A DNA stretch of 56,756 nt from Prorocentrum cordatum (GCA_963575745.1 CAUYUJ010000068.1:62001-118756); one strand, 5' to 3'; shown: positions 9,654 through 55,600, counted from the stretch's first letter. Program-made: numbers and translations. The notes: generated from the sequence alone by a model not told the origin.

Positions 9654-9675
9654 TCCGTAGCCATCTCGGATCAAG
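9654..9675 (+). other. Dinoflagellate spliced-leader copy (relic or SL-RNA pseudogene exon)
   Basis: TCCGTAGCCATCTCGGATCAAG matches DCCGTAGCCATTTTGGCTCAAG at 19/22 without gaps. It is followed by GT, and by an ATG at 9698. Confidence 0.8.
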
Positions 9676-10547
9676 GTATCGCCTGTGTTTTTGGATCATG
9701 GCTTTGACGGCGAAAGACCTTCACGAGCAGTATGGCCCTGAGCTGTCGCGGCCTCCCTTGGCCGACTGCGACAGTGCGAGAGGTTGAGTATACCCCTACG
9801 TGTGACTGGACCTGTTTGCGAAAGCAGGAGAAAGTATGGCACCCCTTTGTGTCCAGAGCCGCGCCGTCTGCGTTCTTCCTTTCTCGCTTCTCTCCTTTCC
9901 TCCTTGTCCTGCTCCTCCTCCCCCTCTTCCGCCTTGGAGCCGTATTGGAACTGTCGATGGCCATCTCCCTTTCTCCCTCGCATGTCTGCTTGTACATACG
10001 TATAATTTCAGAACTTACCGTGCATGCGATCGTTTACAACATGGTGGACCGTGCGTATGTCACGAACCTTGTATACATGTGTTTCTCTCCCTCCGTCTGG
10101 CTGTGCACGCGCGCGTTGGGCACTGAGAGTTAGGATCATAGCGCCATGAGTCTATGAGCAATGCATGCGTCATCCTTGGGACTGTATAACATCAGTGTAA
10201 CACATGTACTTCTGTAATCGCATCCCCACGAATTTGCCCCAAAAATGTGACCAACTATCTTGGCACTGCGTACCATCTCACGTGTACCGTGTACCACATC
10301 ATATGTAACAGATGTGATCAACCTCTGTGGGTGTGTACCCCACGCCAGTGTAGTAGCCAGGGTCGTCCGCACGCCACGAAGTGAAGTGTCCCAACGTCAT
10401 AGGGCGGGAAGCTGGGTGTGGGTGGTCTCGAAGAGTCGTTTGGATATTTGGTAGAGCTTGAACGGCCCCCCCACGAAGTGGGGGTATTGGCTGGTGTCGC
10501 AAGAAAACCCTGGCACTGGGGAGAACACTGAGCGTTCGGGTAAAATG

Positions 10548-12880: not shown

Positions 12881-13048
12881 AGGGGCTCCCAGCTTCGCGC
12901 TTCGCGCTGCGCACTGCAGCGCGCAGGGCGAGCAGCTTCGCGCTCTCGCGCCGCCCCCCGGGGGAGAGAGAAGAGGAGGGCGAGGAGGAATCGGAGCGGA
13001 AGCGCGAAGCGCGCAGCGCGAATAGCTTCGTGTCCTCGAGGGCGCCCT
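12881..13048. mobile_element. MITE-like element family D, copy 1
   Basis: Homologous to 23904-24060; ends AGGGGCTCCC / GGGCGCCCT; internal TTCGCGC / GCGCGAA inverted motifs. Confidence 0.55.
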
Positions 13049-23903: not shown

Positions 23904-24060
23904 CAAGGGCTCCCAACGTCGCGCTTCGCGCTGCGCGAAGCGCGAAGTGCGAATAACTTCGCGCCCTCGCGCCGCCTCCCAGGGGAGAGGAGGAGGAGGA
24001 GGGGGAATTGGGGCCGAACCGCGAAGCGCGAACACCTTCGCGCCCTCGAGGGCGCCCTTG
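23904..24060. mobile_element. MITE-like element family D, copy 2
   Basis: CAAGGGCTCCC ... GGGCGCCCTTG; homologous to 12881-13048. Confidence 0.55.
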
Positions 24061-25205: not shown

Positions 25206-26174
25206 CTGATAGCCCCCCCCTCCCGAGGTTGCCTGGAGGCCTTCGGGGAGGCCTCGGGGAGGGGGTCTCCGGCCTGAGGCTTCTTCGAGGCCAGCCGGGG
25301 ACCCCCTTGGAGGCCCCCCCCCCCAGGGGCAGGAAGGCGCCGTGGCGGGGCAGGCTCGAAGACGCTGGTTGTCCGCCGATTCCCCACTCCTGGAGTCCGG
25401 CGGCGGCGGAGATGAGGACGACGAAAGCCTTTGCGGCGGCCATTGCGGCTCTAAGCGCCCAGGACCATCAGAGTGTGCGACGGCTGGTATGGAACTGCTC
25501 GGTCTGCGGAACTGTGAAGATTCGGGGCCGCCGTGGCTGCGAGGGGTGAGTGGGCGGAGGACGGGGGGAGGGAAGAAAAACACGGGGGAGGGTGGAAGAC
25601 GGAAGAGGAGGAGGAGGAGGAGGAGGAGGAGGAGGAGGAGGAGGAGGAGGAAGAGGAGGAGGAGGAGGAGGAGGAGGAGGAGGAGGAGGAGGAGGAGGAA
25701 GATGAAGAGGAAGAGGCGGAGGGAGAAGGGTGAGACAGAAGGAGGGGGATGAGCAGGGGAGGACGAGGGAGGAGAAGGGAGATGATTCTGAGGAAGAGGA
25801 GGGAGGAATAGGTCGAGAAGGATGACGGTGATAGGCAGAAGGCGGAGGATGGCGGGAATGATAAGACTGCTACTACGAATGTTTATACTACTTATGTTTA
25901 TACTGATGCTATTACGAAGAATAATAAGAATACGAATAATAATAAACAGCATAATAATAAGATCGTACTTATCATACAAATAAGAAGAACGGCGCTACTC
26001 ATACTAATACTACGATTAATGATAATAAGAATAAGTACGGGGGAGGGTGGGAAGATGGAGGAGGAGGAGGAGGAGGAACGAAGGTCGAGGGAAAAGGGTG
26101 AGGCAGGAGGAGGAGGGGGATGAGCAGGGGAAAACGAGGGAGGAGAAGGGGGGGGATGAGGAGAAAGAGGATGA

Positions 26175-26189
26175 AGGGGGAGGTGAAGA
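26175..26189. repeat. Target-site duplication, left copy (AGGGGGAGGTGAAGA)
   Basis: Identical 15-mer at 33013-33027; directly adjacent to T6 (A-tail of the minus-strand element). Confidence 0.85.
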
Positions 26190-26296
26190 TTTTTTGTTTG
26201 ACACGGCCATGACTGACACAGCGTTGGTGCCAGTTAAAAGGACCCCTGGCGGTGACTGAGCGGGACGGGCCGCACGGACACGGAGGGCGCCAGAGG

Positions 26297-29200
26297 TCAA
26301 TCGGAGTCACCAGACTCCGCGGTGCTTACACGAGCAGCTTGCAAGGGAGCCTCGTCCTCCTCTTGGCGAATAGACGTGATCACACGCCTCGACTGCTCTC
26401 GCTCGGACACCTCACCCTCTTCGTGGGGAAAGGCGCCCTGCTCTGCACCTGGCCCTGCTTGTGGGGCAAAAAGAGAAAAAGCTTCAAGAGGGCCCGCAGC
26501 TCCGATGGTGCCAGGCGACGACGACGGGTCGACGACTCGATCACTCTGCTGGGCGCACTCAAGAAGGGGCTCCACCACTGGAGCCTGATCGGCAAAATGC
26601 CTTGGATGCTGGACTTCGCGGTCCCCAGCAGCAGCGACGATGGCCGACGACGAGGACGACGGGTCGACGACAGTATCGTGCTGCTGGGGATCCTCGCCCA
26701 ACGCCTGTAGGTCCTCAGGAGACGCCTCAATCACGACTCCGTCGATTTTGGGATGGCGTCCCTTGAGCACTCGATACTTCCACCGCTCGAAATTGTTCCT
26801 CGTTGGGGCCCTGCAAACCTTAGCAAGCAGCGCGAGGGGGCCCAACGTATATATAGCTTTACACCTAACGCAAATGACAAGCTGAGACCGATCGCTGCAA
26901 TCGAAACTCAACAACCTGTGGCCTCTGGCGGCCACCTGGAGCAACGACTCTGGTACCTTCCCAGTACAACCTCCACTTGAGGGCACGTCGCTCTTACCAA
27001 ATACGAAATCAGGGCTGGGCCGCCGTATCTTGAGGCATACAGCACACCTCCAGTATGACCTATGCCATTCCCATTCGTGCTCAAAAGTTTCAGGGCCAGC
27101 GGGCTTCTGGCGAGGCTCTCTGGGGTTCAAATGGACTCCCGTGAGATCCAGGGCGGGCCGCTTGGGCAGTAAACGGGCCGCAAGCCTGCAAACCGCACGA
27201 GAAACCTTAACTTTCCTGTCTACTTCATCAAGCTCAGCCTTGGAGCCTGTGGGGCGGGCGAGCAGTCCTTGACGTGCGGCGCGATCGGCAGCCTCATTTC
27301 CGAATTTCTCCCTGCGTTGCTGGGCAGTTAAATCAGGACTGTCGGCCACATGCGCTTTTACTTTTCTAACAGCAGACAGGTCACACGAATGGGTCAATAA
27401 CATGGTGCCCGAAAACACTTTCTTATCGGAGAACCTGGCCTCAGGAGGAAGCGCGAAGGTGCTGACCACATTCGCGCAATCCGAAAAACCTTCCGAGGGG
27501 CCTCCAAGGTTCTGTGAAACCATGGCGAGGGCTGCAAACTCTCCAGCTTGGGGGGTCTGAGGGAGCGGAGCCCATATAGGCCCACACACCGAGCAGGTCT
27601 CCTGAGCATCCTGGGTGACCTGTACATAGCCCCACGTGGCCCTACTCAGCTCCTTGATAGGGTGTCTGGTGCAGGACCCGTCCATGAAAATATATCCCTT
27701 GACCTGGCCAGGATATACGACGTCTTCTGTTCCTTCGGGCGTGTGAGTGATAATTCCACCTTGCTGTCGTGGGCGTTGTAGTACATCTCCAGGGTGTTCA
27801 AACAGCCCCTTAGAGAAAAGTAGCGTTTCCTTAGCGTCCGATCGATCGATGCTCCTAGCCTGGGTGATCAATTCGTCATCGTCGATCAAATCCCTCCTAT
27901 CATCGTCGACCGCACTGCACTCCCACAGACGGTGGAAGATCGCGCCACGCGCTCCGCAGCTTAAAGGACACTGAGCTGATGGCAGAGCGTGCCCCAAGTC
28001 GAGCGCACGCTCGTTGGTCCACACAGCTCCGCACACCAACGACTTGATACAACCCTTCTCGTAGTATGTATACCGTGACGAACGAAGCTGACACGATACC
28101 ACATCATAACATACTCGACAAGGTACATCGTGGACTCTACCAGCATCCCTTTCGAGCTGTCTCAAAACTCCATCATGCAACATCTGTTTAATGAGCGCTG
28201 GGGAACAGGTCGTTAAAAATATGTCTTCTCCGAAATCGTTGACCAAGACGCAGAAACTCTTCATGTCCCATTGGATCCTGAGGAGGCTGAGGCGGAGCGC
28301 TGAAAGGGGACCCGTGACCTTCTTCCAGGCGAGCTCTTCTTTGGGGACCCCGTGCGCCGACTCCCAAGCTTCCCTCAAAACTCCGAACGACAAAGTATTA
28401 GGCGAGGATCTAACTTGGTTCGAGAAGACCTCCTTAGCGTAGCGCACCACCGGCGCCACTGATCCATGCCACGACGGATCACCGTGCAACAACAACAAAG
28501 AGGTGAGGGACCTCGCGCCTGCAGACGGCCGTAAGACAGAGCCCACAGCACGACGAGCAGTCGCCAACTCGTGATCAGACTGGCCGTGCACTTCAGCTCC
28601 ATAAAACAGGCCTGCTAGAGGTCCACTCGTGAAAATACTTCGGCAGTGCTTGCCCAGCACCTGCTTGACTCGCTTGAAACGTTTCGTTCTCTTCTTGAAA
28701 ACGGCTGCTCTCTTCTGCTGCTTCTGTCCTCGTCCCTTTCTCCTCCTGCTCTTCCCTGCCGTATCATCGATGCCCAAGTTCACTGCAGATTCCACATAAG
28801 AGGCTCCACCGTACTCGCCTAGAGCTTGCCTGATGGCTTCTCCAGTCTTGTGGGATGAACATTTGCCCGACGCTTTGTCCTGGGCAACTTGTACGCACAT
28901 CTCTTCAGTGAGCCCAACGTATAGCTGTGCCGCCGTGTGAATAATATCATGTGCTACTTGCTTGGGCTTACCTGTGGACGACATGCCATAATCATCGATC
29001 TCTATACATATATATGTCCAAGGACGTGCGGAGCGGGAAAGTGATGCAGTCTACTGTGGGAATTGCGTACGCTCTAATGTAGTGGTCGCCAAAGAACAGC
29101 CTGCGATAACTGCTGAAAAGGCAAAGTGAGGGCCATGCACCATGCTGGCCATCGCCAAGAAGCGTGGGCCCTTGTACGCGGCGGTGCTTACACGGTACAG

Positions 29201-31449
29201 CTGCTTCGGTAACGCTAGCAGCTCGTATCTATCTCCCAGGATGGACAGCACAATGGAGTTCCCAGAGAACCGTGCAGGCCACCGTCTTTTCTTCTTTCTT
29301 GGGCGTTCCCTTGAGACTCTTGGACTGCTTATGGGGCCCAGGACGAACAGCTTTTTCAGACCTCACCGCTTGCCTCCAGACCACGTCCGAAGCTCCCGAG
29401 AAGGGCCCCGCCGCCAAGTACGGGCGCCAATTGGATGCCTCCCAAGACGCCGCAATGGGTCTCCGAAGCTTGCCCCAAAAGCGATAGTGAACAACCCAAT
29501 AGGTCTCCAACCACCTGCAGGTTTGGCTAAAAGCGGAACCACAATCGCGCGGACCTGATTCGGCAGGATGGAGGTCGCCTCCACGACAGAATATATAAAG
29601 ACATCAAGGCCAGCAAACCTTGATCAGCGATGCTGCTGAAGTGGCGCATGTGGAAGCCGTCCACGGAGGTCGCGGACGTGAGCTTATACAGATGCGATAC
29701 TGCCCTCATCTCTGGTGGCGGCACAACATCGAGGGGCTGAATGTACTCAACTTGTTCGGGCAACTCTGGCGTCTTGGAGGCCTTCCAAAGCTTACCAAAC
29801 TTCTGGGCCTCAGAGGCCAACAACGATTTGGGGTCCGCCAGCACAGCCCCTTGGGCCGAGAGGGTGGTGGTGGGTTGCCACGCTGTGGGGAGACGAGTCC
29901 ACGCATGAGCTCTCCCCGCCCCTTTATCAACCCCGTCGCATAACCAGGCCTTCCAAGACTTCTGAGCCTCCGACTTAGCCTTCAAAGAGTACGCCCCTAG
30001 GTCCTCGGAGATCTTATCTAAGATGCTGCAGCCCAAATCTAACTCCCCAAGAACCTCCGAGACCTCGAAGACCTTATCTATGTCCTGAACCTGGATAAAG
30101 CCTTTGATGCTGTCATAAATCTCAGAGAACTCTTCCAAGTGCCGGCCTATGCAGGCCGGAGGATCGGCTAGGCAAGCACGTGCACCACGAAGCTGGCGGA
30201 GCACACGAGAGCGCGCTGGCGTGGGGACTGTCGATGTCGGTCCTGGCGGAACTTGGCTCTCAAAAAGCATATCGGATTGCGGCAACCATGCCGTCGCCCC
30301 AACTTCGGAAGCTGGAGCCTCCGTCGCCGCCGAAACGTCCAGGGCGTGCAGCAGGCTGATAAAAAGACGGGACGTGCTCTCCAACCAGCTCAGCGTGAAC
30401 AGAGCAGGTTGCCTGACATCTTTCCTTTTGTCTACTTCTAAAGCTGACCTCCAAATCAACTTAGGCAACCTGCCCCTTGTACCTAACAGCGGGATGTCGA
30501 CCTGTCGACTGGCAATCAACTCTTTTTCCGCTGTGGTGGCCCAAATCTTGTAGGCCAAATTCATGTGCCTCTGAATCTTATTACGTGGGGCTCCTTCGCG
30601 AACCAGTGAGAGACCGTAAGTGGCGCAACCCAGGGCGTCGTCCCAAGACGGGGGCTCAGGGCAAGGACCTATAGGGCGCTGCGCGGGTATCACTGGAGGC
30701 TTGGAGAACGTGAGGAACTTAATGTCCGCGAGGGTGGGGTAGAACTTAATTTGGACGGGCGTGTGAGTCTTCAGATCGTTCTCCAAAATCACCCTGGTGG
30801 ACTGGATACCTTTCGACAGGCCTCCCGAGACCACCATGTAGTCTAACAGCCTGACCGTGCTCGAGGCCGTCGTTGCACAAGTACCCTTCACTTCTGGATA
30901 CACGATGCAACTGGATAAACTGCCCGCCAAGTCACATTCATGTAGCTCAGCTGGCTCCACGTTGAAGTCGCCTCCGATGATGTGAGGCTTGCGGTTGCTC
31001 TGCGCCGCCGCTCCGATCGTGGCCAAAATCTTGAGGTTCTCAGCGGAGAGCCCCTCGGAATCGCGCAAGTGGGTCGAGATGCAAAGTCTCGATTCACCCC
31101 CGGGAATCTGCACCCAACAACCGACAGCTCTTGCTTTGTATATTTTGTGGCCAGCCTCCAGGTCGTAGCATCCCAGAAACGAACGGACGAAGATCGCCAC
31201 CCCGCCCGAAGCTCCTGAGCCTACTCCAGCCTCAGCCGCCACGAACCGAGACTTCCAGCCTTGCTTGAGGGCCCAGCTGGAGGCCTCTTCAATGTGGTCG
31301 TCGAGGACCAACTTGTGCTCTTGCAGGAAGATAATATGTGTTCCCGAACGTTGCAGCCAGGGTTTAGCCGATCCCCAGGAGGTGACGTTGGCCGTCTCCA
31401 CAACCAACTCAAAACTTTCCAGTCCACAGGGCTGCCTAGACGCAGAAAC
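26297..31449 (-). pseudogene. LINE ORF2 (pol): APE endonuclease - reverse transcriptase - CCHC - RNase H - Cys-rich C terminus; frameshifted
   Basis: APE motifs ETANVT, FLQEHK, GGDFN, LLDYMVV and HTPV (about 31407-30753). RT motifs SVDGF, PLLAKPAGGWRPIGL, VIAGC and disrupted YIDD (about 29720-28700) are split over at least 4 frames. CPLSC...HRLWEC. RNase H motifs IFMDGS, QTPQAGE, FSDC, KVKAH and GNEAAD (about 27700-27265). Confidence 0.93.
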
Positions 31450-31669
31450 TCACCCAAGGGCTCGGAGCCTGGCTCGGGGGGCGGAAAACGGCACAGCCGT
31501 TTTAAAAGCTGGTGCGCCTCTGCAGGGTCTGGCGCACGCCGACTCTCCGCAGGAGGCGCATCTGCACTCGCAAAAAGGTGCCCCCCTGGGGGAGGCTATC
31601 AGATGAGGTAGAAGATGCTGATGCTCAGGCCCACCAGCTGGCCCATCTGGTTGCCGCCCCCCTGCGCGC

Positions 31670-32888
31670 TCATGCGGATGCCGCTGCAGCCTGCTCTGGT
31701 GCAGGGGGAGGTGCCTGGGACGCTGCACGTCGAGCTCGCTCCCTGACGTTCTCGCCCCCTCCAGCAGCCCCAGCTGTGATCGTACACGAAGACCCAGAAG
31801 CTGGAGCTCCTGTCCCTGGAGCTGCCGCCGCTGCGGCTCCCTGTGCTGCGTCTCCTCCACCTGCAGCTTGATCCTCTTCTTCTGCTGCTTTACGTCGTTT
31901 CCTCCCCAACCTTTCCATGTGCTGCGCGTGCTGCTGCTTGATAGTGTCCAACTGGCTGATGATACCGCCGAAGGCTTCCTTGGTGACCCTGGCGATGTGT
32001 GCCTTGAACTCGTTCGTTCTGTCGCGCAGAATCTGCTTGTCGCCTTCTGTGACCACGTACTCGTCCTCAGGCACGCTGAAGATCTCCCCAGCGTCCACGA
32101 ACTCGAGACAGCCCAACTTGCCGTCCACGATATCGCGAAGCTTAAGCCCAGTAGGCTGAAGAGTAACCACCTTCTTATCGCACACTGAGCTGTGTAACTG
32201 GTCCACCAAAGTTTTGTGCTGCGCGTCGGCCTCCTCGGGCTCGCTCGAGAGCTGTTGGACAACTGCGGCCTTCTCGTGGCACCAGGCTCTCCACTTCTCC
32301 AACTTGTCGAATTCGCCGTTGAGCTTCTTCTCGAGGAACTGAACGCGCTGATGGGCTGCGGTGGCCCTCTGCTGGAGCGGCTTCTCCTCGGGCACTTTGT
32401 TGGCCGCGCGGAGCCGCTCCAGCGCGACCTTGTACTGGCTGGCTGCGGCCACATCACCAAAACGATTGGCCAAGGACACCATGCGCTCGAGCTCCTCCTC
32501 GCTGAGCGCCTCCCCAGTCGGGATCGGCTGGGGTCCTGGCTGCAGGGCTGGCGGCCCGTTCACCCAAGCTCCCAAACGGTCGAGCTCGGGATCACTGGGC
32601 TCGGGCCTCGGCGCCTTGCAGTGCTTGCAGAACCAGTAGCTCCCCAAGTTCTTTCCACATAGGCAGTGCCCGCACTTCCAGAAGGTCTGCTGCTGGTTGC
32701 CCTGGCCTCCTTTGCCTCCTTTGCCTCCACCCTTGGCAGAAGTATCTTGGAAGAACTGAGTGTGGCCGCCAGCTCCTTTTTCCATAGCCTTTGTTGCCCT
32801 TGTCGTTCCCCGTGTAACTCCAGCCTGCGTACCATGCGTCATTGCGCTCGTTGGCGCGGCGCTGCCATGGCGGCGTGGCTGGGGCCAT
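31670..32888 (-). pseudogene. LINE ORF1 with RanBP2-type zinc finger and coiled coil
   Basis: WKCGHCLCGKNLGSYWFCKHC, KGGGKGGKG and a helical E/K/Q-rich segment. The probable true start is MAPATPPW at 32888, with a frameshift in the A-run near 32780. Confidence 0.8.
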
Positions 32889-32995
32889 CCTGACGACAGG
32901 AAGGCGGGGATGCTTGCAACTGAATCTGGCTCGCCTGTGCAGCGTGCCGTTTTGAAGTTCGCACAGGCAAGGCCCCCGCTCTCGGGTCTAGCGGT

Positions 32996-33013
32996 CTGGG
33001 CCCAAAACGGCTA
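32996..33013 (-). other. SL-like sequence at the exact 5' end of the LINE
   Basis: TAGCCGTTTTGGGCCCAG versus SL TAGCCATTTTGGCTCAAG, 14/18 ungapped; the first T overlaps the TSD. Confidence 0.6.
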
Positions 33014-33027
33014 GGGGGAGGTGAAGA
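33013..33027. repeat. Target-site duplication, right copy
   Basis: Identical to 26175-26189. Confidence 0.85.
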
Positions 33028-33867
33028 AGGATGACGACGATGATCAGGAGGATGGCGGAGGAGAAGGAGGATAACGCGGGGGCCGAAGGAGGGGCAGTGG
33101 GGAGAGTAGGGGAGAGTAGGCATAAGAACAGGAGAGGATGAAGGAGGCGCAGGGAAAGGATGATGTGGAGGAAGAAGGGGTAGGGGAAGGGGGAAGAGCA
33201 GGGGGGGGATGAGGAGGAGAGGAGGAGACGGAGGATGAGCATACGGAGGAGGCGGAGCGTCCCTCAAGGAGCAGAAGGAGGAGGAGGAGGAGGAGGAGGA
33301 GGAGGAGGAGGAGGAGGAGAGGGAGGGGGATGAGGAAGATGAGGAGGAGGAGCGGAGGAGGAGAAAGGGGAGGAGGAGGAGGAGGAGGAGGAGGAGGAGG
33401 AGGAGGAGGAGGAGGTGGAGGAGGACGAGAAGGGGGAGACGGTGGAGGAGGAGGAGGAGGAGGAGGAGAAGGAACATGGAGGGGACAAGCGGGAGTACGA
33501 GGAGAAGGATCATATTTCCCCTCGCCCTTTCGCATGTTTTTCCTGCTGCTTGTGAGTGTTGTTGGGATCTGGGGAGAGCCTGTGCGCCAGAGGGAGGGAG
33601 AACGATGAGGAGGGGGGAGGTGGAGGAAGAGGAGGAGGAGAAGGGGCATGCTGATCAGGGGGATCTGGATGAGGATGCGGAGGGATGATATCTGGAGAAC
33701 CGACAACCGCGCGGAGCTGTGGGGCCTGAATCTTGTGTGCAGTGTTTTCAGCAGTTTTGGCTTTTGTTTTCCACTGAAATTGTTAGGCAAGCAAGCCCTC
33801 TATCCCAAGTTTTCGATTCTTGTCCGGTTCTGGCCCCCCCCCCTCTCCAGACGCGTGCCAACCCCAG

Positions 33868-33913
33868 GTGATTACCCGTGCAGATTCCCGCAAAGCGTCC
33901 AGCTCATCGAGAG
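33868..33913 (+). CDS. Candidate small exon of an unidentified gene
   Basis: CAG|G acceptor and AG|GTGAGT donor; possible frame DYPCRFPQSVQLIE. Confidence 0.25.
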
Positions 33914-34729
33914 GTGAGTGGGGGACGGTCAGGAGGCGGAGGGCACGATGAAGCACCATCGAATCGGGGGGACTGGCTTGGATGGGAACGTGCGTCGGGC
34001 CGTGCTGCATCGGCATGGATCGGCTGCGCAGGCATGCGCATCCGCGCCACGCAAAAACCGGGCCGCATCGGAGCGTCGGAATAGCTATCGGAATCGAGCC
34101 GGAGTCAAATCGGATCGATGCGGCCAGCATCGATATCGAATCAAATGTGGCAACAGGAGAGAAAGGGGGGGCTGCCTCCGACCGGATGTAGTCCATGTTC
34201 GCGTCGTCATCGCCTAGGGCGAGAATTTCATCCTCATCGACCTCCTCCCTCGTCCTCCTCCTCCGCCTTCTTCCTCCTCCTCCTCGTCCTCCAACCCTCT
34301 TCTGCACATCTCTTCCCTCCTTCAACTCATCCCCTCCCCCCTACCCCGTTACCCTTCGACGTACGTGCGCGTCGACCATGGGCGCCTTGTTACCCGTCGG
34401 CCTGCGGGGGTCTCCGGCTGAGCGGCCTCCGGCGTTCTCCGCTGGTGATTCTCGCGGGAGCCATGTGGTTGCGATGAACGACGAAAGGGCCCGTGTTCGA
34501 ACAGCCAGCAAGCGTGGAGGACACGACTTCCCCGTCGCCAAGCAGCAGCTGCTTGACCTCCTGTGGCGGCACGTTGCGGTGGACATCCACCGGGATGGTC
34601 TTGGTTCTGGTCTGGCGGGCGAGGCCGGGGCTCTCCGATGGGGGCAGGGCAGCACGGGAAACGAGACGAGGGCAAGCTCGAGCTGCCGCACCCTGTGAGT
34701 GACAGCGCCGCTCGCGTACATCCTGCGAA

Positions 34730-34872
34730 ATGCTTAAGAAATCATGGGTTAAGAAATTCATAGTCTCAGAACTTGAATAAAAACCCAACATTTCTGTTAA
34801 CATCTTAAGATTTACATTAAAACGTTAAGAATAATCGAGACTCTGGCCGAAAACTTAAGTTTTCTTAAGCAT
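34730..34872. mobile_element. AT-rich MITE-like element
   Basis: Perfect 12-bp TIR ATGCTTAAGAAA / TTTCTTAAGCAT. Confidence 0.55.
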
Positions 34873-36375
34873 CGCCTAAGGTGTAGGCTCAAACGGCCAC
34901 GGGGCCCCCCGTTTTCGAAATCGGGCCTTGCGGCGACCCACGGCGGCCCGCAGATCTGCTCCGATGCTGAGATTGCCTGCCTGCCGGTGCGAGGTGCTGC
35001 GGGTTCCAAGGTGAGTGCCATCTAGCCGTGCTGCAAGTCTAGACGAACATGATCGGGGGCCAGCTGGAATGACTGTGACATTATACACACACGTTGTCTC
35101 ATCCTCAGAATTAAAATCGGAAGCTCGGTGGCTAGCACGATCCTGGAAATTGCCCTGAACACTGGGGCAAACAAACTCTCGAAAGATGCTGGGGAACTCA
35201 GCGTCCAGATCTTCGCTGGCTGAGCTAGATAGAAGAGTCTCTGCAATGGTGGGAAGACTTGGAAGAAGGAACCCCGTGTTTATGCCAACGGGGCGCCTGC
35301 TCCTCCCAACGTGGCTGTCGAAATCATGCTTGGGACGGAGGGCGAGGATGATGGGAAGAGATGACGCCGTGAAAAGAGACCGAACACGACGACCAGGACA
35401 AGCAGCGCATGCAACAAACAGCGCCGAGAGAAAGGCAGAGGGAGAAAGGAGTGTGAGAAGGAAGAGGAGGACGGCCCGAGTCAGCCCAATCTGCACCAAA
35501 GACGCTGAAATCCGCCCAAACGTCTCCCACCCCCTCCTCATAAGGCCTTACCAGCACTCTGCTTTCGTGCGCGAGTCGCCCCCCCTTGAATGACCAGCAC
35601 CCCAAGGGCTCGAAATTTAGGCGCTCCTTCGAATTACGAAGAATGCGACGAGGTGGGGACGCACAGTTCAGGGAAATGCCTGACGACAGCCCGCTTTGAA
35701 AAGGAACCACCCTCCATCTGCGTAGCTGTTGCAACTTCACTGATGTCGACGAAATCACGCGACGAGTCAAAGGTGGGACCCCCCTTTGAAAGCTTCCCTC
35801 TCTCCACTCGTGACATTGCTGAACAGGTCTATACTGTGATATCATGTGCTCGAGAAGGTCTCGTGCGAGTGCCCCCCGTGTTTTGAAGGAGCCACCCTGC
35901 ATCAGTGAATGCATCCGTTGGGCCTGTTGGGCCTGTCCCAGACGAGCGTGCGCTGCACGAGCGCGATCTAACCCCATTTTGCAAGCAGCCTGCCCTTCCA
36001 CCCGTGCCACGGTTTGAGGCGTGCAGGGCGACTGTGCGCGGCGCCAGGCAGCGAGAGATTGCTCTTGAACACTCGGGGGCGGCCAAGAGGGGGGTGTCCA
36101 AGAGGGGGGGGTGCAAATCATGCCCGGCGGCATGTGCGCAGCCCAAGGGGGGGGCCAGGGACGTAATGAAATAAGAAGAGGCGCCATGAAATCTGGGGAA
36201 AAATCATGGCCCCCGCCATGATATCCACCCCCCCTAGTCAGCACCCCCCTCTTTCCCGCCCCCGAAACACCAACCCGCCCTCCACCCCGTGCGGCTGCCG
36301 GGCAGCATGAAGCCGCTCGTGCAAGCGCGCGAAGGCCAGAGCCCCGCTTTTGAAGAAATGACCCGTTCGACGGCG

Positions 36376-37872: not shown

Positions 37873-39969
37873 GTGCACGGCGGAAGCGCCAGCACGAGCT
37901 CCTCCGAAGCACCGTCAGTAGCCCATCCTGCGCCCTGGTGCGGGACGCCCAGATGCGGGAGGCCCAAGGGAGGGTGCTCGGGTGTCCGTCAACCAGGAAG
38001 CAGCACACGTGGCGGGAAGAGGCGTGCACCCTTCGTGCGCACTCGCGGCCCATTTAGGGCCACCTTCCTGCAACCCTCGATGCCCCCATGTCTATGGCCC
38101 CCCGTTTGCCGTCCGCCAAAAGCACGACATGGCAGTGCCACCGGCACAAGGGCTCATCAGTCGTGCCAGACACCGCGATCGGAGCAACGTCGTCGGTCTC
38201 GTCGACTGGGAGGCAGCCTTCAACAGCGTCATCGTCGAGCTCGTGCACCGACTTGCTTCCTCTGACAGATCGAAGGTTGGCAAACTTGGGTGTGCGACCC
38301 GCCGAGGAGTCCCCGTGGACTGGCACCCAAACCTCCAACGAACCGGACAAAAACAATACATAGGTGTTTCTCATCATTTTCGACCTCTAGGGCCCTCGCC
38401 GGGCCCTGGGACCGACACAAGACTAATCAGGATGCAAAACAGGCGCCGGGAAAGGGTCGGAACTTCCGGGGACCCCGTCTTGAAAAAACAAAACGTCGGA
38501 TCTCTGGGTAGGAGCTCAATCTGCAGTGAGCCCATAGACAGCTCCACGAACCGAGGAGAGGTGGCTCTGGCAGGCTCTTGCGCAAACGCCAAGGCCTGGC
38601 CATGCCAAGCCAAGGCGCGAGGAAACTCGGATCGGCGGCGAGTGAGCCAGTTGTGCCAGCTCTGCACGAACTGGGTGGGTGAGTATCAAGCTCGTGCATG
38701 CATCAAACCGCCGCGTCAGATTTGTGGATGCCATGACAATGGACACCCTAACAATCCGATCACTGAATGAAAACTGTGTTCAACATGTTTGAAACATCTT
38801 CAACCAGCAGCCCGCACAGAACAACTTGCCCCCTGAGCCCGCGAGGGACAGCACTCCAGGTGGCCAGGCGGCAGAGGTGGCAGGCGGGGCGCCCCTGCGC
38901 CGCCCCGCGCCCTCCCCCGCAGTGTCACGTGCCCGTCTTCGGCCTTCGAGGAGGAGGGAGGAGGGAGGAGGAGGATAGAGGAGGAGGGAGGAGGAGGGAG
39001 GAGGAGGGAGGAGGGAGGAGGAGGAGGGAGGAGGGAGGAGGGAGGAGGGAGGAGGGAGGGAGGGGGAGGAGGAGGAGGGAGGAGGAGGAGGGGGAGAGGA
39101 GGAGGAGGAGGAGGGGAGGAGGAGGAGGAGGAGGAGGAGGAGGGGCCAAGCTGAGCACTGCCGTTTTGGACCGGTGCTCGGGCGCGGGCCTCCCTTCCTG
39201 GAGGCTGCAGGATGGCTGCGCGCCCGAGCTGCCAAAGACCCTACCCTGTCAGAGCCTTCCTCGGGCGGGTCATGCTGGGCCCAGCATGTCCTGCTCACCC
39301 AGCTCAGGCTCCCGCGGCAGTGACGTCCACCCCCAGCAAATCCATCCTTCGGGCCAGCATGGCAAAAGGTTCACTGGGGCTTCGCCGAAGCCGTGCCAGG
39401 GACTCTACTGCTGCATTTAGCCTTCGGCGGCCAGCCACTTCCATTCCTTTCCGTCTGCAGAAACAGGTGGCGCGATAGTGGAGGACACCAACTCCTCCTC
39501 ATCACTTGGCTGACGGGGGCGACTTGGCCACGTGGCGTTCTTGGGCTGAGGCACGGCCTGAGCCTCATCCTGCGACACACGGCATTCTAGGGGAGGCGAA
39601 ACGCGGCGCAGCGGCTGTTTAATATTGCCGAACCTGGGTGACGGCGGAACTGTGTGCGGCAACTCCGCTTCCACTGGTGGTAACGGCATAAGAAAAGAGC
39701 GCCGTTCAGTGCGTTGCGCGTCGGAAGGGGCATCCACCCAGAGGACAAACAACGCGCTCATGCCAGGCACACCAACCAGCTCAGTGGCCAATTGCACCTG
39801 CTGGGTGGGTTGCACAAAGTCGCTCGTGTTTGCCAGGTGGCGGTTCGCCGTACGGGTGCGGAGACACATCGCACCCAACAACCTGCGAATACAGCAAAGC
39901 GGCCTGCTTCAAAACCTCTTGCCTGTCCTGGCTGCGGAAGACATCTTGCGCCGCGGCCTGTTTGTATTA

Positions 39970-46265: not shown

Positions 46266-48159
46266 CTGCAAATCCATGGCTCGGCCGAACCGAGCTGCGC
46301 CCTTTCGAAGTGCGCAGCAGGAGGAGGATGAGGAAGAGGAGGAGGAGGTGGAGGAGCAGGAGGAGGAGGAGGAACAGGAGGAAGAGGAGGAGGAGGAGGA
46401 GGAAGAGGAGGAGGAAGAGGACAGGGGAGGAGGAGTGAGAGGAGGGAGGGAGGAGGAAGGGAGGGAGGGATGATGAGGAGGAAAAGGAGGAGGAGGAGGA
46501 GGAGGAGGAGGAGAGGAGGAAGGAGAAACGCAAGGGAGGAGGAGGAGGGGGTAGGAGAGGAAGGAGGAGGAGGAGAAGCAGGATGCGCAGAGAGGAGAAG
46601 GAGGATGGAGGAGAGGAGGCGGAGGAGGAGCAGGACGAGGAGAAACGAGGATAGCGTGACGTGGACCGAGGATCAGGAAGGAGAGGAGAAGGAGGAGGAG
46701 AGGCGGCAGAGGAGAAAGGAGGAGGATGTAGGAGGGAGGAGGAGAAGGAGGAAGAGGCGGCAGGAGGAAGTGAGGAGCATGAGGAGTAAGAGGAAAAGAT
46801 TAATGGAGATGGAGGATGAGGAGCAGGGGAGCAGAGAGGAGAGAGCATGAGAGGAGGAGCAGGAAGAGCAAGGATAGCAGGATGAGAGAAGGATGAGCAA
46901 GGAGGAGGAAGAGGCAGAGAAGGAGGATTTGCCGCCGCAATCCGGACCTCCATCAAAACAAGCGTACGAGAGAGGTGGTGCTCGAGGCGGAGGAAGAGGA
47001 GGAGGGGAGAAGGAGGAGGAAGAGGAGGAGGAGGCAGATGATGAGGTGGGGAAGGGGGCGGAGGATGAGGAAGAGGCGGAGGACGAGAGGGAAGGACGGA
47101 GAAAGAGGAGGAGGATGAGAAGGATGAGGAGGTAGGAGGGCGGGAAAGAGGAGGAGGCAGGAGGTAGAGGATACATCTGAGTATGGATGGAGGAAGAGAA
47201 GGTAGACATGAGAGGAGTAAGCGAAGAGAATGAGACGAAAGACGCGAAGGAGGAGAGGGAGGCAGAGGAGTGAGGAGGGGCCAGTGCTGACGCGCGGGAT
47301 GGGCCGAAACCACCGCGTGAGGCATGAGAGGGAGGAAAGGAAGGAGGAATGTAACGAGGAGGAGGAGGACGAGGCGGAGGAAGAAAATGAGGAGGATGAG
47401 GTGGACTGACTGACTGACTGACTGACTGACTGACTGACTGACTGACAGGCGCGCCCTAGCACGGCGGAATCCCTGACCTCGACTAAAGTCACCGTGGGTC
47501 CAAAGGCTCATGCGACCCGTACAGGAAACGAACGTTACATCCCAAGTTCTCCTGACCTGGGTGACCCAAACATGGCCCCACTAAGCGACCGAGCTGCTAT
47601 GCTGGCGGGGTGGCTTTGCAGATGACTGAACCAGCTAAGCAGAGACTCGCGATGGAATCGCGACCATTGCTGTCCACGCGAGGCACTGGCGGCTCTCCCG
47701 CTGGGCCCACATGGGGGCATCCTAGATGGGATCCAAGTGGATGGGGTCGGGGGATTGCACCGCATCGCCGACGCATCGCCGATGCGATGCATCGACGATG
47801 CGTCGGCGACGTCGGCGATGCATCGGCGACGCCGGCGTGGGGAACCTCGGGCTCCGCATCGAGCTCCCGGGGTCCGTCCTGGCCACTTTTCTGGGGCGGG
47901 CCCAACCGCGGCGACGAGAAGCCCCACCAGGAGGGCAGAGCAGCGCCATGGGCGTGCCGCCGCCGTCTCGACGGGCCCTCCTCCGGGAGGCAACAGATCG
48001 CGAGGCGAATTTCCCTGCTCTGCCCTCCTGGGAGGGCGAAGGCGAGGACAACGACAACGCTCTTGCGCGGGCCCGCGTCAGGGCGGGGCCCCCGGCAGCT
48101 GCCGGCAGCGGCGGCGCGGCGGCTTCGGCAGGAGGCGGGGGCGGGGCGAAGAGGAGGAC

Positions 48160-49942
48160 CAGTGGAAACCCAAGAGTCATCAACGATGTTGGAAGGAACC
48201 CTCCCTCCAAGCTCCCTCTCCATAGGCCCGCACAACGGTTCATTTCCATTTTGAGGGAATTGCCCCGTTGGAAGACAGCCGTTCGAAGATCCTGAAGCGT
48301 GCCAAAACATTGTTCTCGGGATTTCAACGCCACGTATCAACTTGACTGCTGCGTCTTGACGATCTGGAATCGTGCCACAGCGCTATTTTGGGACTTCAAC
48401 ACCGCAAACCAACATAACTGTTGCACCCGCATAATCCTGAACCCTTCCGAAACACCATTTCTGGTACGCTGATCATGGGAACCCGTCAAACTCTTGCAAA
48501 TTTTGACAACGAGAGCGCGTGGTGCTAAGGCGAAAACCACATATTGAAAAGGAACCGCCCTCAATCCGTGAAAGTTCTGAATTTTTTGCAACGAATGTGC
48601 GCGGCGCTAAAGCGAGAACCACATATTGGAAACGACCCGCCGTCAATCCGTGAAACTCTTGCAAATGTTTTAATCCTATGTACGCAGCGCTAATGCGAGA
48701 GCCACATTTTGAAAACGACCCGCCCTCAATCCGTGAAGCTCTTGCTGACAACGAATGTGCGCGGCGCTCAAGCGAAAACTACATTTGGAAAAGGACCGGC
48801 CCTCCATTTCTGAAGCTGTTGCCAGTTTTCAAGCTTCAGAATCATAAATGGTGCGGAGGTCTCAGACGAAACGCCTGGCCCGCCCTAGAAACTGGCCTCG
48901 GGGTGCGACAGGGAGAAGTTATCTAATAAAGGGAAGGAGTGGGGGAGGAGAAAGAAGACGAGGACGAGGACGAGGAGGAAGAGGAGGAGGAGGAGGAGGC
49001 GGAAAGGAGGAGGAGGAGGAATAGGAGGAGGAGGATCAGTGGAAACCCAAGAGTCATCAACGATGTTGGAATGAATCCTCCCTCCAAGCTCCCCTATTCA
49101 TAAACCCGCACAACGGTTGATTTCCATTGAACTGCCCCGTTGGAAGACAACCGTTTGAAGATCCTGAAGCGTGCCAAAACATTGTTCCCGGCGCCACGTA
49201 TCAACCTAACTGCTGCGTCTTGACGATCTGGTATCGTGCCAGAGCGTCATTTTGGGGACTTCAACACCGCGAACCAACATAACTGTTGCACCCGCATAAT
49301 CCTGAACCGTTCCAAACTACCATTTCTAGTACGCTGATCATGGGAATCCGTGAAATTCTTGCGATATTTGACAACGAATGCGAGCGGCGCTAAGGCGAGA
49401 GCCACATATTGAAAAGGAACCGCCCCCAATCCGTGAAGGTCTTGCGAAGGTTTAAGACGTGTGCGCGGCGCTACGGCGAGAATCACATTTTGAAAACCAC
49501 CCGCCCTCACTCCTGGAAGCTTGTTTCAAATGTTGACAACGAGTGTGCGCGGCGCTAAAGCGAGGGCCACATTTTGAAAACGGCCCGCTTTCAATCCATG
49601 AAACTCTTGCAATGGTTGACAACGAATGTGCGCGGCGCTAAGGCGAAAACCACAGTTTGAAAGCCACCCGCCTTCAATCCGTGATACCCTTGCCATTTGT
49701 TGTAAAAAACGAACGTGCGCGGCGCTAAGGCGAGAACCACATGTGTTTTAACCACCCGCCCTCAATCCGCGAAGCTCTCGCACATGTAAGCAGCAAGTGT
49801 GCGTGGCGCTAAGGCGAGAGCCACATTTGGAAAGCGACCGGGCCTCCATCTGTGAAGCTGTTGCTACTTTTGAAATTTCAGAATCGTACGTGGTGAGGAA
49901 GTCTCTGGCCTCGGGGTGCGACAGGAGGGAGATATCTATAAG
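48160..49942. repeat. Two tandem copies of an element carrying an internal ~85-90-bp satellite
   Basis: 48160-48929 and 49037-49942 share a ~320-bp unique head and tail, with about 4 versus 6 internal GTGCGCGGCGCTAAGGCGAGAACCACATTTTGAAA units. Confidence 0.85.
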
Positions 49943-54499: not shown

Positions 54500-55600
54500 T
54501 TGTGTTTCGATGGGCTCGCCCTTCTGTTCGCGTGCTCCCGCGGGACAGACGAGCGAGCCCATCGAAACACAACCTCGCGCGTGCCCGTTGGTCGCTGTGT
54601 GTTCCGATGAAATCGCTCCAAATCCACGCGTTCGCTCGCGATTCCACGAGCGACGACTGCGGCGCCGACGACGGCCGCGGCGTCGCAAAGTTTATTCTAG
54701 CGCCAGCGCTCTGTGCTCCGATGGGCTCTCCTCCTCCTCCTCCTCCTCCTCCTCCTCCCCCTCCTCCTCCCCCTCCTCCTCCTCCTCCTACCCAGCCTCC
54801 CCCTCCTCCTCTTCCCCTCCTTCTCTGCGCCTCCTCCTCCTCCTCCTCCTCCTGCTCCTCCTCCACCTTTTTTCCCCCCCCCCCATATACACACACCCTC
54901 CTCCTGCTCCTCCTCCTCCTCCTCCTCCTCCTCCCCCTCCTCCTCCTCCTCCGCAAGCGCGAGCCCATCGGAGCGCATCGCTATACAAAGATGCGGCATG
55001 GATCCATCTGCGCTGCCCAGGTGCCGCGCCTCTGCGTTCGCGCTGGGCTCGCGCCTCTGCGCGTCGGCCCTGTGACAGGGCCGACGCGCAGGCGCGAGCC
55101 CATCGGAGCGCACCACTGATGCGTTATATGTATATATATATATATACACATTTATATATATACATATATATATATGTACACTCCAGATTTCGTAATCAAG
55201 GGAGGGGGGTCTCATTTCGGGGAGGGGTCTCTTCCGGGCTATCTTGGAGGACCTGGGGGGTCTGGGGACGATGTTTTGGAGGGTTCTCCCACGGGGGAGG
55301 TCTGAAATGGCTTGTCTTGGAGGGTCCAGACCCCCTCCCTTTTATTACGAAATCAGGAGTATACACAAGAAGAGAAATCGAATGGATCAATTTGCATCAA
55401 TACCGCGACTCTGCGTTCCGATGGGCTCGCGCTGGCGCAGCGGCCCCTGGCAGAGCCGACGCGCAAACGCGAGCCCTTCGGAACGCAGCTATCATGCGAC
55501 ATGGGGAGGGTCGATTCACACTTGTGACGCGCCCCTGCGTTCCGATGGACTCGCGCTCACGCGTGGACCCGCGCACAACCGACGCGCAAGCGCGAGCCCA
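54500..55600. repeat. Cluster of alternating-orientation GCGAGCCCATCGGA motifs, including a long hairpin at 55045-55101
   Basis: Motif and its reverse complement recur about 9 times; GGGCTCGCGCCT..TGCGCGTCGGCCCTGT / ACAGGGCCGACGCGCAGGCGCGAGCCC. Confidence 0.7.
55177..55363. mobile_element. TA-flanked MITE (Tc1/mariner-like) next to a (TA)n tract
   Basis: About 35-bp TIR TACACTCCAGATTTCGTAATCAAGGGAGGGGGGTCT / AGACCCCCTCCCTTTTATTACGAAATCAGGAGTATA. Confidence 0.7.

What the first reader, a model, noticed from the sequence alone, without database searches (positions are those of the whole stretch)
32931..33012. Three-stem pseudoknot occupying the exact 5' end of a LINE: candidate uncharacterised ribozyme or cis-acting RNA
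Seen: the first ~80 nt of the element RNA read A-GCCGTTTTG-GGCCC-AGA-CCGCT-AGACCCGAG-AGCGG-GGGCC-TT-GCCTGTGC-GAACTT-CAAAACGGC-ACGCT-GCACAGGC-GA. Stem A is 9 perfect bp (33011-33003 with 32954-32946). An inner hairpin pairs GGCCC/GGGCC and CCGCT/AGCGG. Stem B is 8 perfect bp (32968-32961 with 32940-32933, extendable to 10) and crosses stem A. Known: several non-LTR clades (R2, L1Tc, some RTE) carry 5' HDV-like self-cleaving ribozymes with the strand order P1-P2-P1'-P2'. The order here is the same, but the linkers (6 and 5 nt) are too short for the HDV P3/L3, P1.1/P4 and J4/2 elements, so it is not a canonical HDV fold. Most positions where the end differs from the spliced leader fall in paired positions. 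Inference: an SL-derived end may have been recruited into a functional structure for 5' processing, stability or translation.
Basis: partly seen in the sequence, partly recalled or inferred. Interest (0 to 1): 0.8.

Follow-up and report, generated by a model that had tools for sequence, protein, structure and literature searches.

The report
Spliced-leader relic heading a dinoflagellate LINE
The 82 bases are the start of the 5' untranslated region of a complete jumping gene (LINE) in a Prorocentrum-like dinoflagellate; it begins with a fossil of the spliced leader, and its stems exist on paper, but nothing supports a self-cleaving ribozyme.

Summary
A perfect 15-bp target-site duplication and an A-rich tail show that 33012 is the exact 5' end of a 6,823-nt non-LTR element. 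Nt 1-17 match DinoSL nt 6-22 at 13 of 17 positions; only 2 of 113,480 window positions match that well.

The ribozyme and pseudoknot reading is not supported:
- Rfam gives no match on the element strand.
- The fold order differs from HDV.
- Stems A and B compete: P = 0.85 against 0.15.
- The whole 124-nt UTR folds no better than shuffles, z = 0.00.
- The only two variants seen in other copies break stem B and hairpin H, with no compensating change listed.
- The window holds 207 perfect stems of 8 bp or more.

New here: the stem A helix (GCCGTTTT with AAAACGGC) recurs as a tight hairpin in the ORF1-ORF2 spacer. The first 116 nt appear invariant between two sublineages (inferred).

Best reading: a spliced-leader-derived 5' control module, probably an internal promoter and possibly also an RNA helix. 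No covariation test was possible, because no related DNA could be fetched.

The parts
33013..33027 (-). 5' copy of the 15-bp target-site duplication TCTTCACCTCCCCCT
   Evidence: identical to 26175-26189
26190..33012 (-). Complete non-LTR (LINE) insertion of 6,823 nt: 5'UTR, ORF1, spacer, ORF2 (APE-RT-RNase H), 3'UTR and A-rich tail. The copy is disabled by 2 frameshifts and 2 in-frame stops.
32996..33012 (-). Relict of DinoSL nt 6-22 (13 of 17 identical), with TTTT retained
   Evidence: 2 of 113,480 positions have 4 or fewer mismatches; DinoSL as printed in PMC7245778
33003..33011 (-). Stem A 5' arm GCCGUUUUG
   Evidence: I13
32946..32954 (-). Stem A 3' arm CAAAACGGC
32971..33002 (-). Inner hairpin H (5+5 bp, 3-nt internal loop, 9-nt loop); pair probability 0.94-1.0 in the nested ensemble
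32961..32968 (-). Stem B 5' arm GCCUGUGC. A variant at 32964 in other copies breaks it.
32933..32940 (-). Stem B 3' arm GCACAGGC
32889..33012 (-). 124-nt 5'UTR with no upstream ATG; ORF1 ATG at 32888
31670..32888 (-). ORF1, with a RanBP2-type zinc finger by a source's name and a coiled-coil-like part. It has a 1-nt frameshift in the A-run at 32781-32777.
31485..31503 (-). Spacer hairpin AAAACGGC-UGU-GCCGUUUU, the same 8-bp helix as stem A; about 36 nt upstream of where the ORF2 frame opens
26297..31449 (-). ORF2: APE endonuclease, RT and RNase H. Frameshift near 29605-29599; in-frame TGA at 29365-29363 and TAG at 29053-29051.
26190..26200 (-). A-rich 3' tail CAAACAAAAAA
26175..26189 (-). 3' copy of the target-site duplication

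Best explanation
The 82 nt are the head of the 124-nt 5'UTR of a full-length APE-type LINE of a Prorocentrum-like dinoflagellate.

Shown:
- The element is bounded by a 15-bp target-site duplication and an A-rich tail.
- Its first 17 nt are a relict of the dinoflagellate spliced leader (nt 6-22).
- That relict's core, GCCGTTTT, has a perfect inverted partner 48 nt downstream (stem A).
- The same inverted pair recurs as a tight hairpin in the ORF1-ORF2 spacer.

Inferred:
- A founder transcript was once trans-spliced and retrotransposed, and the relict became the fixed 5' end of the family.
- This copy, and the main contig of run X1, start at the relict with no fresh leader in front. The template RNA therefore most likely starts at nt 1.
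- That start calls for an internal, downstream-acting promoter in the first ~100 nt. It would be analogous to Pr77 of trypanosomatid L1Tc, with the retained TTTT motifs (one on each strand) as candidate sites for the TTTT-preferring TBP-like factor.
- In the transcript the same complementarity probably closes a 67-nt Y-shaped 5' domain (stem A plus hairpin H).
- Stem B is an alternative or fortuitous pairing, not part of an obligatory pseudoknot, and there is no self-cleavage.
For: - Boundaries.
- LINE identity: Exo_endo_phos E = 3.8e-9. Relatives with RVT_1, zf-RVT and RNase_H (30.9 bits against a cut-off of 25.8) align across 31413-26711. All 3 ORF1 relatives found are Prorocentrum cordatum proteins, at 93, 91 and 60% identity.
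- Leader relict: 13 of 17; 2 of 113,480 positions match that well.
- Fixed 5' end: in run X1 a 118-nt contig (depth 11.6) covers 32897-33012 with 1 other letter and carries only 2 further letters.
- Conservation (inferred from contig joins): two X1 contigs differ from each other at 32874, 32883, 32893 and 32896. Both end at 32926, inside the 30-nt overlap with that single 5' contig. Only 2 variant places are listed in 32897-33012, against 5 in 32841-32896.
- Motif recurrence: GCCGTTTT/AAAACGGC occurs 5 times in the LINE and is its top 8-mer outside simple repeats. It occurs 8 times in the window against 1.5 expected, while one-mismatch neighbours occur 1-3 times. The spacer hairpin is the only perfect hairpin of 8 bp or more with a loop of 10 or less in the LINE.
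- The A+H domain has z = -2.52. The 32964 variant falls in a loop of the nested fold but breaks stem B.
- Literature: TTT(T/G) of DinoSL relicts is proposed as a core promoter, preferentially retained (PMC5585692, passages). Pr77 is a 77-nt internal promoter at the 5' end of trypanosomatid non-LTR elements and is bound by TBP (PMC8190864 abstract; PMC3383444 listing).
Against: - There is no transcript evidence of any kind for the start site.
- The promoter role is inferred by analogy only. A TATA-like TTTT box normally lies upstream of a start site, not at +6.
- The X1 run may be the window's own source and gives few copies. The place of the 1 differing letter in its 5' contig is unknown, and 11 variant rows were not shown.
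- The conservation contrast rests on two sublineages and could reflect recombination.
- The whole 124-nt UTR folds no better than shuffles, and its MFE lacks stems A and H.
- The window is generally rich in perfect inverted repeats.
- 41 of 249 distinct 8-bp helices recur in two or more stems, most within one repeat tract. By my reading of the list about 8 groups recur at well-separated places, so the recurrence of the stem A helix is unusual but not unique.
- There is no wider similarity between the 5'UTR and the spacer.
Confidence: 0.5

Rival explanations
1. A purely RNA-level cis element. The GCCGUUUU-AAAACGGC helix, once as long-range stem A and once as the spacer hairpin, is a recognised duplex placed 35-60 nt before each ORF. 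It could mask the leader-like U-tract (Sm-site-like), bind ORF1p or a host factor for RNP assembly, protect the 5' end, or support ORF2 initiation. It would have no promoter role.
For: - The same exact helix occurs twice, and both form in local folds.
- It lies 58 nt before the ORF1 ATG and about 36 nt before the ORF2 frame opens.
- ORF2 has no ATG near its start, so an unconventional initiation aided by structure is plausible.
- Dinoflagellate SL RNAs are described as Y-shaped with the leader in the stalk (PMC6616646 passages), which the 68-nt domain resembles.
Against: - There is no covariation data.
- The hairpin region has z = -1.05 (34 of 200 shuffles as good).
- The full UTR MFE drops stem A.
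- Identical 8-mers in four places fit a DNA motif equally well.
- Inverted repeats are common in this genome.
Confidence: 0.2
2. A neutral fossil. The leader relict is a scar of past trans-splicing, and stems A, H and B are chance complementarities in a GC-rich genome rich in inverted repeats. They would have no function at DNA or RNA level.
For: - The window has 207 perfect stems of 8 bp or more, and the LINE has longer perfect inverted repeats in its coding parts.
- z = 0.00 for the UTR.
- The variants break pairs without compensation.
- This copy is dead: 2 frameshifts and 2 stops.
Against: - Two disjoint perfect stems occur in only 6 of 20,000 shuffles and 12 of 5,668 real windows.
- The helix recurs in the spacer.
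- Variant density is low in the first 116 nt.
- The 5' end is fixed across copies.
Confidence: 0.2
3. One reading: a three-stem pseudoknot that is a new self-cleaving ribozyme, releasing the element RNA at nt 1 from read-through transcripts.
For: - Crossing perfect stems sit at the exact 5' end.
- There is precedent for 5' ribozymes in R2, L1Tc and Schistosoma non-LTR elements (listings).
- A fixed 5' end needs some mechanism.
- This copy sits behind a long pyrimidine tract in a possible read-through context.
Against: - No Rfam ribozyme family matches at E <= 10 or at gathering score.
- The topology does not match HDV-like folds.
- A and B are alternatives in nested models, P = 0.85 against 0.15.
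- G>U at 32964, at 5.98 of 17.6 depth, breaks the centre of stem B with no change listed at 32937.
- There are no conserved catalytic-core features to point to.
Confidence: 0.05
4. A conformational switch. Stems A and B are mutually exclusive alternatives that toggle the 5' end between two states, for example translation against packaging.
For: A+H gives -27.6 and B+H gives -30.8 kcal/mol. The MFE flips between A and B with context length: A at 82 and 173 nt, B at 300 nt, and B in the centroid of the 124-nt fold.
Against: Near-equal alternatives are what random GC-rich sequence gives. The stem B variant is frequent. There is no comparative support.
Confidence: 0.05

Closest known systems
DinoSL relicts at the 5' ends of retroposed dinoflagellate genes (PMC5585692, passages read; PMC7245778, passages)
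   Same: A leader-derived sequence lies at the 5' boundary of a retroposed unit. The TTTT/TTGG part is retained while other positions decay, and the relict starts at AGCC. A second example lies in this window at 9655-9675.
   Different: Here the carrier is an autonomous LINE, not a host gene, and the relict is the inherited, fixed terminus of a multi-copy family. Its core also has perfect inverted partners in the 5'UTR and in the spacer. My searches listed no paper describing a relict at the head of a LINE. The listings were read and not every paper, so this is not proof of absence.
Pr77 / L1TcRz of trypanosomatid L1Tc/ingi elements (PMC3383444 and PMC3185411, listing abstracts; PMC8190864, abstract)
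   Same: The first ~77-82 nt of a non-LTR element in an organism that trans-splices all mRNAs. Both are structured and define the element's own 5' end.
   Different: Pr77 folds as an HDV-like ribozyme and has measured promoter activity and TBP binding. Here no HDV-like fold or Rfam match is found, nothing has been measured, and there is no sequence relation.
HDV-like 5' ribozymes of R2 and related elements (PMC3774820, listing; RTE examples recalled)
   Same: Position at the exact 5' junction, and two crossing helices.
   Different: The hairpin lies between A5' and B5'. There is no P3/L3, P1.1, P4 or J4/2 equivalent, and there is no covariance-model match.
Dinoflagellate SL RNA fold (PMC6616646, passages)
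   Same: A Y-shaped fold with the leader sequence in the stalk. The 68-nt domain has the leader-like arm in a 9-bp stalk with two arms.
   Different: There is no splice donor after the leader-like part. This is a resemblance of shape only, and no SL RNA gene sequence of this organism was available to compare.

Membership tests
HDV-like self-cleaving ribozymes | Match to the family covariance models (sequence plus nested double pseudoknot) | tested here: not met
   Rfam 15: no match at gathering score in the whole window. No ribozyme family appears at E <= 10 in 31000-35000 or in 32850-33060, where all 12 weak hits are on the other strand.
HDV-like self-cleaving ribozymes | Order P1-P2-P3-P3'-P1'-P4-P4'-P2', with L3/P1.1 and a catalytic C in J4/2 (features recalled) | tested here: not met
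   The order here is A5'-H5'-H3'-B5'-A3'-B3' with linkers of 6 and 5 nt. The hairpin precedes B5', and there is no room for P4 or J4/2.
HDV-like self-cleaving ribozymes | Self-cleavage at the 5' junction | not testable with these tools
   Needs in vitro transcription.
Other small self-cleaving ribozymes (hammerhead, twister, twister-sister, pistol, hatchet, hairpin, VS) | Match to Rfam models | tested here: not met
DinoSL relict of a retroposed sequence | Similarity to DCCGTAGCCATTTTGGCTCAAG at the 5' boundary | tested here: met
   13 of 17 to nt 6-22, exactly at the TSD-defined end; 2 of 113,480 positions have 4 or fewer mismatches.
DinoSL relict of a retroposed sequence | Retention of TTT(T/G) (PMC5585692) | tested here: met
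   TTTTGG is intact at nt 6-11.
DinoSL relict of a retroposed sequence | Hallmarks of retroposition (target-site duplication, A-rich 3' end) | tested here: met
   15 of 15 TSD and the tail CAAACAAAAAA
APE-type non-LTR retrotransposon (LINE) | Apurinic-like endonuclease domain | tested here: met
   Exo_endo_phos E = 3.8e-9, 37.1 bits against a cut-off of 24.5
APE-type non-LTR retrotransposon (LINE) | Reverse transcriptase domain | tested here: inconclusive
   No Pfam RVT hit in the window's own pieces. Relative P0005 has RVT_1 at E = 0.0016, below the cut-off. It aligns to 29979-26720 over its residues 150-1220, which cover its RVT_1 stretch at 298-506.
APE-type non-LTR retrotransposon (LINE) | RNase H domain (present in some clades) | tested here: inconclusive
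   Window ORF: E = 0.013, 16.1 bits, below the 25.8 cut-off. Relative P0007 scores 30.9 bits.
Pr77-type internal promoter of non-LTR elements | Promoter activity and TBP binding of the first ~77 nt | not testable with these tools
   Analogy only.
H-type RNA pseudoknot | Both crossing stems supported by covariation or probing | tested here: inconclusive
   The stems exist, but no diverged copies were obtainable. The two variants seen both break pairs: 32964 in stem B and 32976 in H.

The most novel reading that the evidence does not exclude
A dinoflagellate LINE has turned a spliced-leader relict into a Pr77-like 5' module. A leader-derived motif and its inverted partner act as an internal promoter on DNA and as a recognised helix on RNA. 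The same helix is placed before both ORFs. This would be a solution convergent with trypanosomatid L1Tc in another lineage that trans-splices all its mRNAs.
Probability: 0.2. Interest if true: 0.65.

Novelty: new variant of a known kind. Interest (0 to 1): 0.35.

Why it matters
How dinoflagellate retrotransposons are transcribed and keep their 5' ends is unknown, yet they are thought to drive the massive retroposition that shaped these genomes. A LINE family whose inherited terminus is a spliced-leader relict gives a concrete, testable candidate for an internal promoter or 5' RNA element. The leader-like motif is paired with an inverted copy and is repeated before ORF2. This bears on the published idea that leader relicts carry a TTTT core promoter. 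It does not, on present evidence, add a new ribozyme class.

Tried and rejected
- **Own genome:** none is held.
- **Other copies in the window:** none; only low-complexity matches.
- **Earlier findings of this scan:** nothing by place, by sequence (two queries) or by words.
- **Metagenome contigs:** the ORF1 alignment found 165 pattern matches and no relative. A 21-nt 5'-end pattern gave 1 match in an AT-rich contig with no likeness beyond the pattern.
- **Viral contigs:** a 17-nt pattern gave 3 chance matches. The ORF1 and ORF2 alignments found no relative.
- **Prokaryote genome contigs:** the ORF2 alignment found no relative.
- **Protein search with the UTR-frame translation:** this was a try at diverged 5' ends through mis-called ORFs. 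No candidate was found.
- **Sequencing runs:** no RNA holder was listed, so nothing can be said about expression. In one search bins 32716-32767 had no cover in X1. X2, X3 and X5 gave no cover of 32931-33012 beyond low-complexity flank pieces.
- **tRNA-like origin:** ARAGORN found none.
- **Wider homology between 5'UTR and spacer:** local score 28 against a shuffled mean of 29.
- **Locus at 9655 as an SL RNA gene:** its fold has z = -0.06. An ATG follows 23 nt after the relict, so a retrogene relict is the simpler reading.
- **Locus at 39160(+):** no protein-level likeness to the LINE.
- **Pfam on 44 other long ORFs of the window:** nothing but a sub-threshold glycine-rich hit.

Full report
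**What is there.**
- Stem A is GCCGUUUUG/CAAAACGGC, 9 bp. Hairpin H has 5+5 bp. Stem B is GCCUGUGC/GCACAGGC, 8 bp, extendable to 10 with one U.G, and it crosses A. The linkers are 6 and 5 nt.
- The stretch really is the 5' terminus of a retrotransposon. The 15-mer TCTTCACCTCCCCCT lies at 33027-33013 and again at 26189-26175, directly after the A-rich tail at 26200-26190.
- These boundaries delimit a 6,823-nt insertion in a CT-rich low-complexity tract.

**The element.**
- ORF1 starts at the ATG at 32888, so the 5'UTR is 124 nt with no upstream ATG.
- This copy has a 1-nt frameshift in an A-run at 32781-32777. The evidence is a Prorocentrum cordatum protein, P0003 at 91% identity, that reads straight across it.
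- A contig of run X1 appears to have four A's where the window has five (this is my inference from the piece coordinates).
- ORF1 found 3 relatives, all from P. cordatum, at 93, 91 and 60% identity. One carries a source's name of RanBP2-type domain protein.
- ORF2 has an Exo_endo_phos domain at E = 3.8e-9.
- Four distant relatives from metagenome assemblies, at 31-33% identity, carry between them Exo_endo_phos, RVT_1 (weak), zf-RVT (weak) and RNase_H (30.9 bits). Three of the four (P0005, P0007, P0008) were laid on the window, and they align over 31413-26711.
- ORF2 in this copy has a frameshift near 29600 and in-frame stops at 29365-29363 (TGA) and 29053-29051 (TAG). The copy is dead.

**Spliced-leader origin.**
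- The DinoSL sequence is printed in PMC7245778 (passages).
- Element nt 1-17 match DinoSL nt 6-22 at 13 of 17 positions.
- Of 113,480 positions on both strands of the window, only two have 4 or fewer mismatches. One is this site; the other is a relict at 9659-9675 that is followed by an ATG.
But 14 of the first 17 nt are paired in the model, so this says nothing.

**Is the structure more than chance?**
- Two disjoint perfect stems of 8 bp or more in 82 nt occur in 6 of 20,000 dinucleotide shuffles (3 crossing). They occur in 12 of 5,668 real 82-nt windows of this sequence (2 crossing).
- Four loci in the window have such a pair. One of them is low-complexity and one is a GATGCATCG-type palindromic tract.
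- The window is unusually rich in perfect inverted repeats: 207 stems of 8 bp or more within 82 nt, up to 20 bp.
- The LINE has longer perfect inverted repeats inside its coding parts, of 12, 12, 11 and 10 nt.
- The thermodynamic signal is weak:

| Stretch folded | z-score | Shuffles as good |
|---|---|---|
| 82 nt | -1.73 | 12 of 200 |
| 68-nt A+H domain | -2.52 | 4 of 200 |
| Whole 124-nt UTR | 0.00 | 101 of 200 |

- The MFE of the whole UTR lacks stems A and H.
- Stems A and B compete. A+H gives -27.6 and B+H gives -30.8 kcal/mol. In the nested ensemble of the 82 nt, P(A) = 0.85 and P(B) = 0.15. The MFE flips between them with context length.

**Known RNA families.**
- Rfam 15 gives nothing at gathering score in the whole window.
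- It gives no ribozyme or other plausible family on the element strand at E <= 10 in 4 kb.
- The same holds, with the laxest filters, on 211 nt. All 12 weak hits there lie on the other strand and are far below threshold.
- ARAGORN finds no tRNA-like gene.
- The order A5'-H-B5'-A3'-B3' is an H-type pseudoknot with a hairpin in loop 1. It is not the HDV-like order, in which the P3 hairpin follows the P2 5' strand (feature list recalled).

**Other copies.**
- No genome is held, and the window has no second copy. Protein- or pattern-based scans of the metagenome, viral and prokaryote collections found no relative. A covariation test was therefore impossible.
- The only comparative data come from Logan contigs of coded run X1, which may be the window's own source. 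Thirty-three contigs were laid, 16 of them under 90% alike, so the family has several copies.
- One 118-nt contig (depth 11.6) covers 32897-33012 with 1 other letter and only 2 letters beyond 33012. This fits a repeat boundary at that place.
- Two contigs differ from each other at 32874, 32883, 32893 and 32896. Both end at 32926, inside the 30-nt overlap with that single 5' contig.
- I infer that two sublineages share an identical first 116 nt. Selection or recombination could explain that.
- Within 32897-33012 only two variant places are listed:
  - 32964 is G>U in RNA sense, at 5.98 of 17.6 depth in 2 contigs. It sits in the middle of stem B but in a loop of the nested fold.
  - 32976 is G>A, at 2.68 of 14.3 depth in 1 contig. 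That is low enough to be an error. It affects the outer pair of hairpin H.
- No change is listed at the partner positions 32937 or 32994. Eleven rows of that table were not shown.

**A new observation.**
- The ORF1-ORF2 spacer holds AAAACGGC-TGT-GCCGTTTT at 31503-31485. This is a tight perfect hairpin with the same 8-bp helix as stem A.
- It is the only perfect hairpin of 8 bp or more with a loop of 10 or less in the LINE.
- The 8-mer, counted on either strand, is the LINE's most frequent 8-mer outside CAG repeats, with 5 occurrences. It occurs 8 times in the window against about 1.5 expected, while its one-mismatch neighbours occur 1-3 times.
- The helix lies 58 nt before the ORF1 ATG and about 36 nt before the ORF2 frame opens. 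ORF2 has no ATG near its start.
- There are cautions:
  - There is no wider similarity between the UTR and the spacer.
  - The local fold has z = -1.05.
  - 41 of 249 distinct 8-bp helices in the window recur in two or more stems. Most do so within one repeat tract, and about 8 groups lie at well-separated places by my reading of the list.

**Interpretation.**
- The relict shows that an ancestral transcript was trans-spliced and retrotransposed. Because the diverged relict is shared by the X1 contig, it is inherited, not added afresh.
- This copy starts at the relict with no fresh leader in front, and the X1 contig carries only 2 letters beyond it. The template RNA therefore most likely begins at nt 1.
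- That start needs an internal promoter or a cleavage. With no ribozyme signature, I favour an internal promoter in the first ~100 nt (confidence 0.5).
- This reading fits two published lines:
  - The TTT(T/G) motif of DinoSL relicts has been proposed to act as a core promoter and is preferentially retained (PMC5585692, passages).
  - Pr77 is the structured 77-nt internal promoter at the 5' end of trypanosomatid non-LTR elements, bound by TBP, and it doubles as an HDV-like ribozyme (PMC8190864 abstract; PMC3383444 and PMC3185411 listing abstracts).
- The RNA-level reading, a recognised or masking helix before each ORF, is a live rival at 0.2 and is not exclusive of the promoter reading.
- A neutral fossil plus chance stems gets 0.2. 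The ribozyme and the A/B switch get 0.05 each.
- The 68-nt domain resembles the Y shape described for dinoflagellate SL RNAs, with the leader in the stalk (PMC6616646 passages). That is a lead, not a test.

**Novelty and score.**
- Leader relicts on retroposed genes are well known.
- In five literature searches I saw no listing that describes one as the inherited terminus of a LINE. I also saw none that describes a leader-like motif paired with its inverse before both ORFs. I read listings and selected passages only.
- The finding is real as an observation, ordinary in part and speculative in function. Interest is 0.35.

Noticed in passing
window 31485-31503 (-): Perfect hairpin AAAACGGC-TGT-GCCGTTTT in the ORF1-ORF2 spacer of the LINE, with the same 8-bp helix as stem A. 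It is the only tight perfect hairpin of 8 bp or more in the element.
   Followed up: yes
window 9655-9675 (+): A DinoSL relict (18 of 21) followed by GT and, 23 nt later, an ATG at 9699. It is probably the 5' end of a retroposed gene. Its fold is unremarkable (z = -0.06).
   Followed up: partly
window 39160-39215 (+): A second GCCGTTTTGG, directly after an (AGG)n tract, with an ATG 52 nt downstream in a context like that of the LINE's ORF1 start. It shows no protein-level likeness to the LINE.
   Followed up: partly
window 49565-49584 (-): GCCGTTTTCAAAATGTGGC, an imperfect head-to-head palindrome of the same leader-like core, flanked by a direct repeat CGTTGTCAAC.
   Followed up: no
whole window: A strong excess of perfect inverted repeats: 207 stems of 8 bp or more within 82 nt, 109 of them 9 bp or more, up to 20 bp. 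My rough expectation for stems of 8 bp or more is about 65.
   Followed up: partly
window 47762-47825: A GATGCATCG/CGACG palindromic low-complexity tract with crossing perfect stems of 14 and 10 bp. It is the only other crossing pair in the window.
   Followed up: partly
window 25570-26189 and 33013-33650: The LINE sits inside a long CT-rich (CCT-like) low-complexity tract on its own strand. This copy's 5' AG is therefore preceded by a pyrimidine tract, which is the form of a splice acceptor.
   Followed up: no
window 25880-26010 (-): An AT-rich island of about 130 nt (ATT-rich) inside otherwise GC- and CT-rich sequence, just 3' of the LINE insertion.
   Followed up: no
window 31445-31455 (-): The ORF2 frame opens right after a TGA, within GGGTGAGTTT. 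There is no ATG before the endonuclease domain, and GGTGAGT also looks like a splice donor. How ORF2 is initiated is unclear.
   Followed up: no
window 12935-13010 and 23919-23964; 54500-55476: 8-bp helices recur at separate loci (CTTCGCGC type and GCGAGCCC type), which suggests other dispersed or local repeat families.
   Followed up: no
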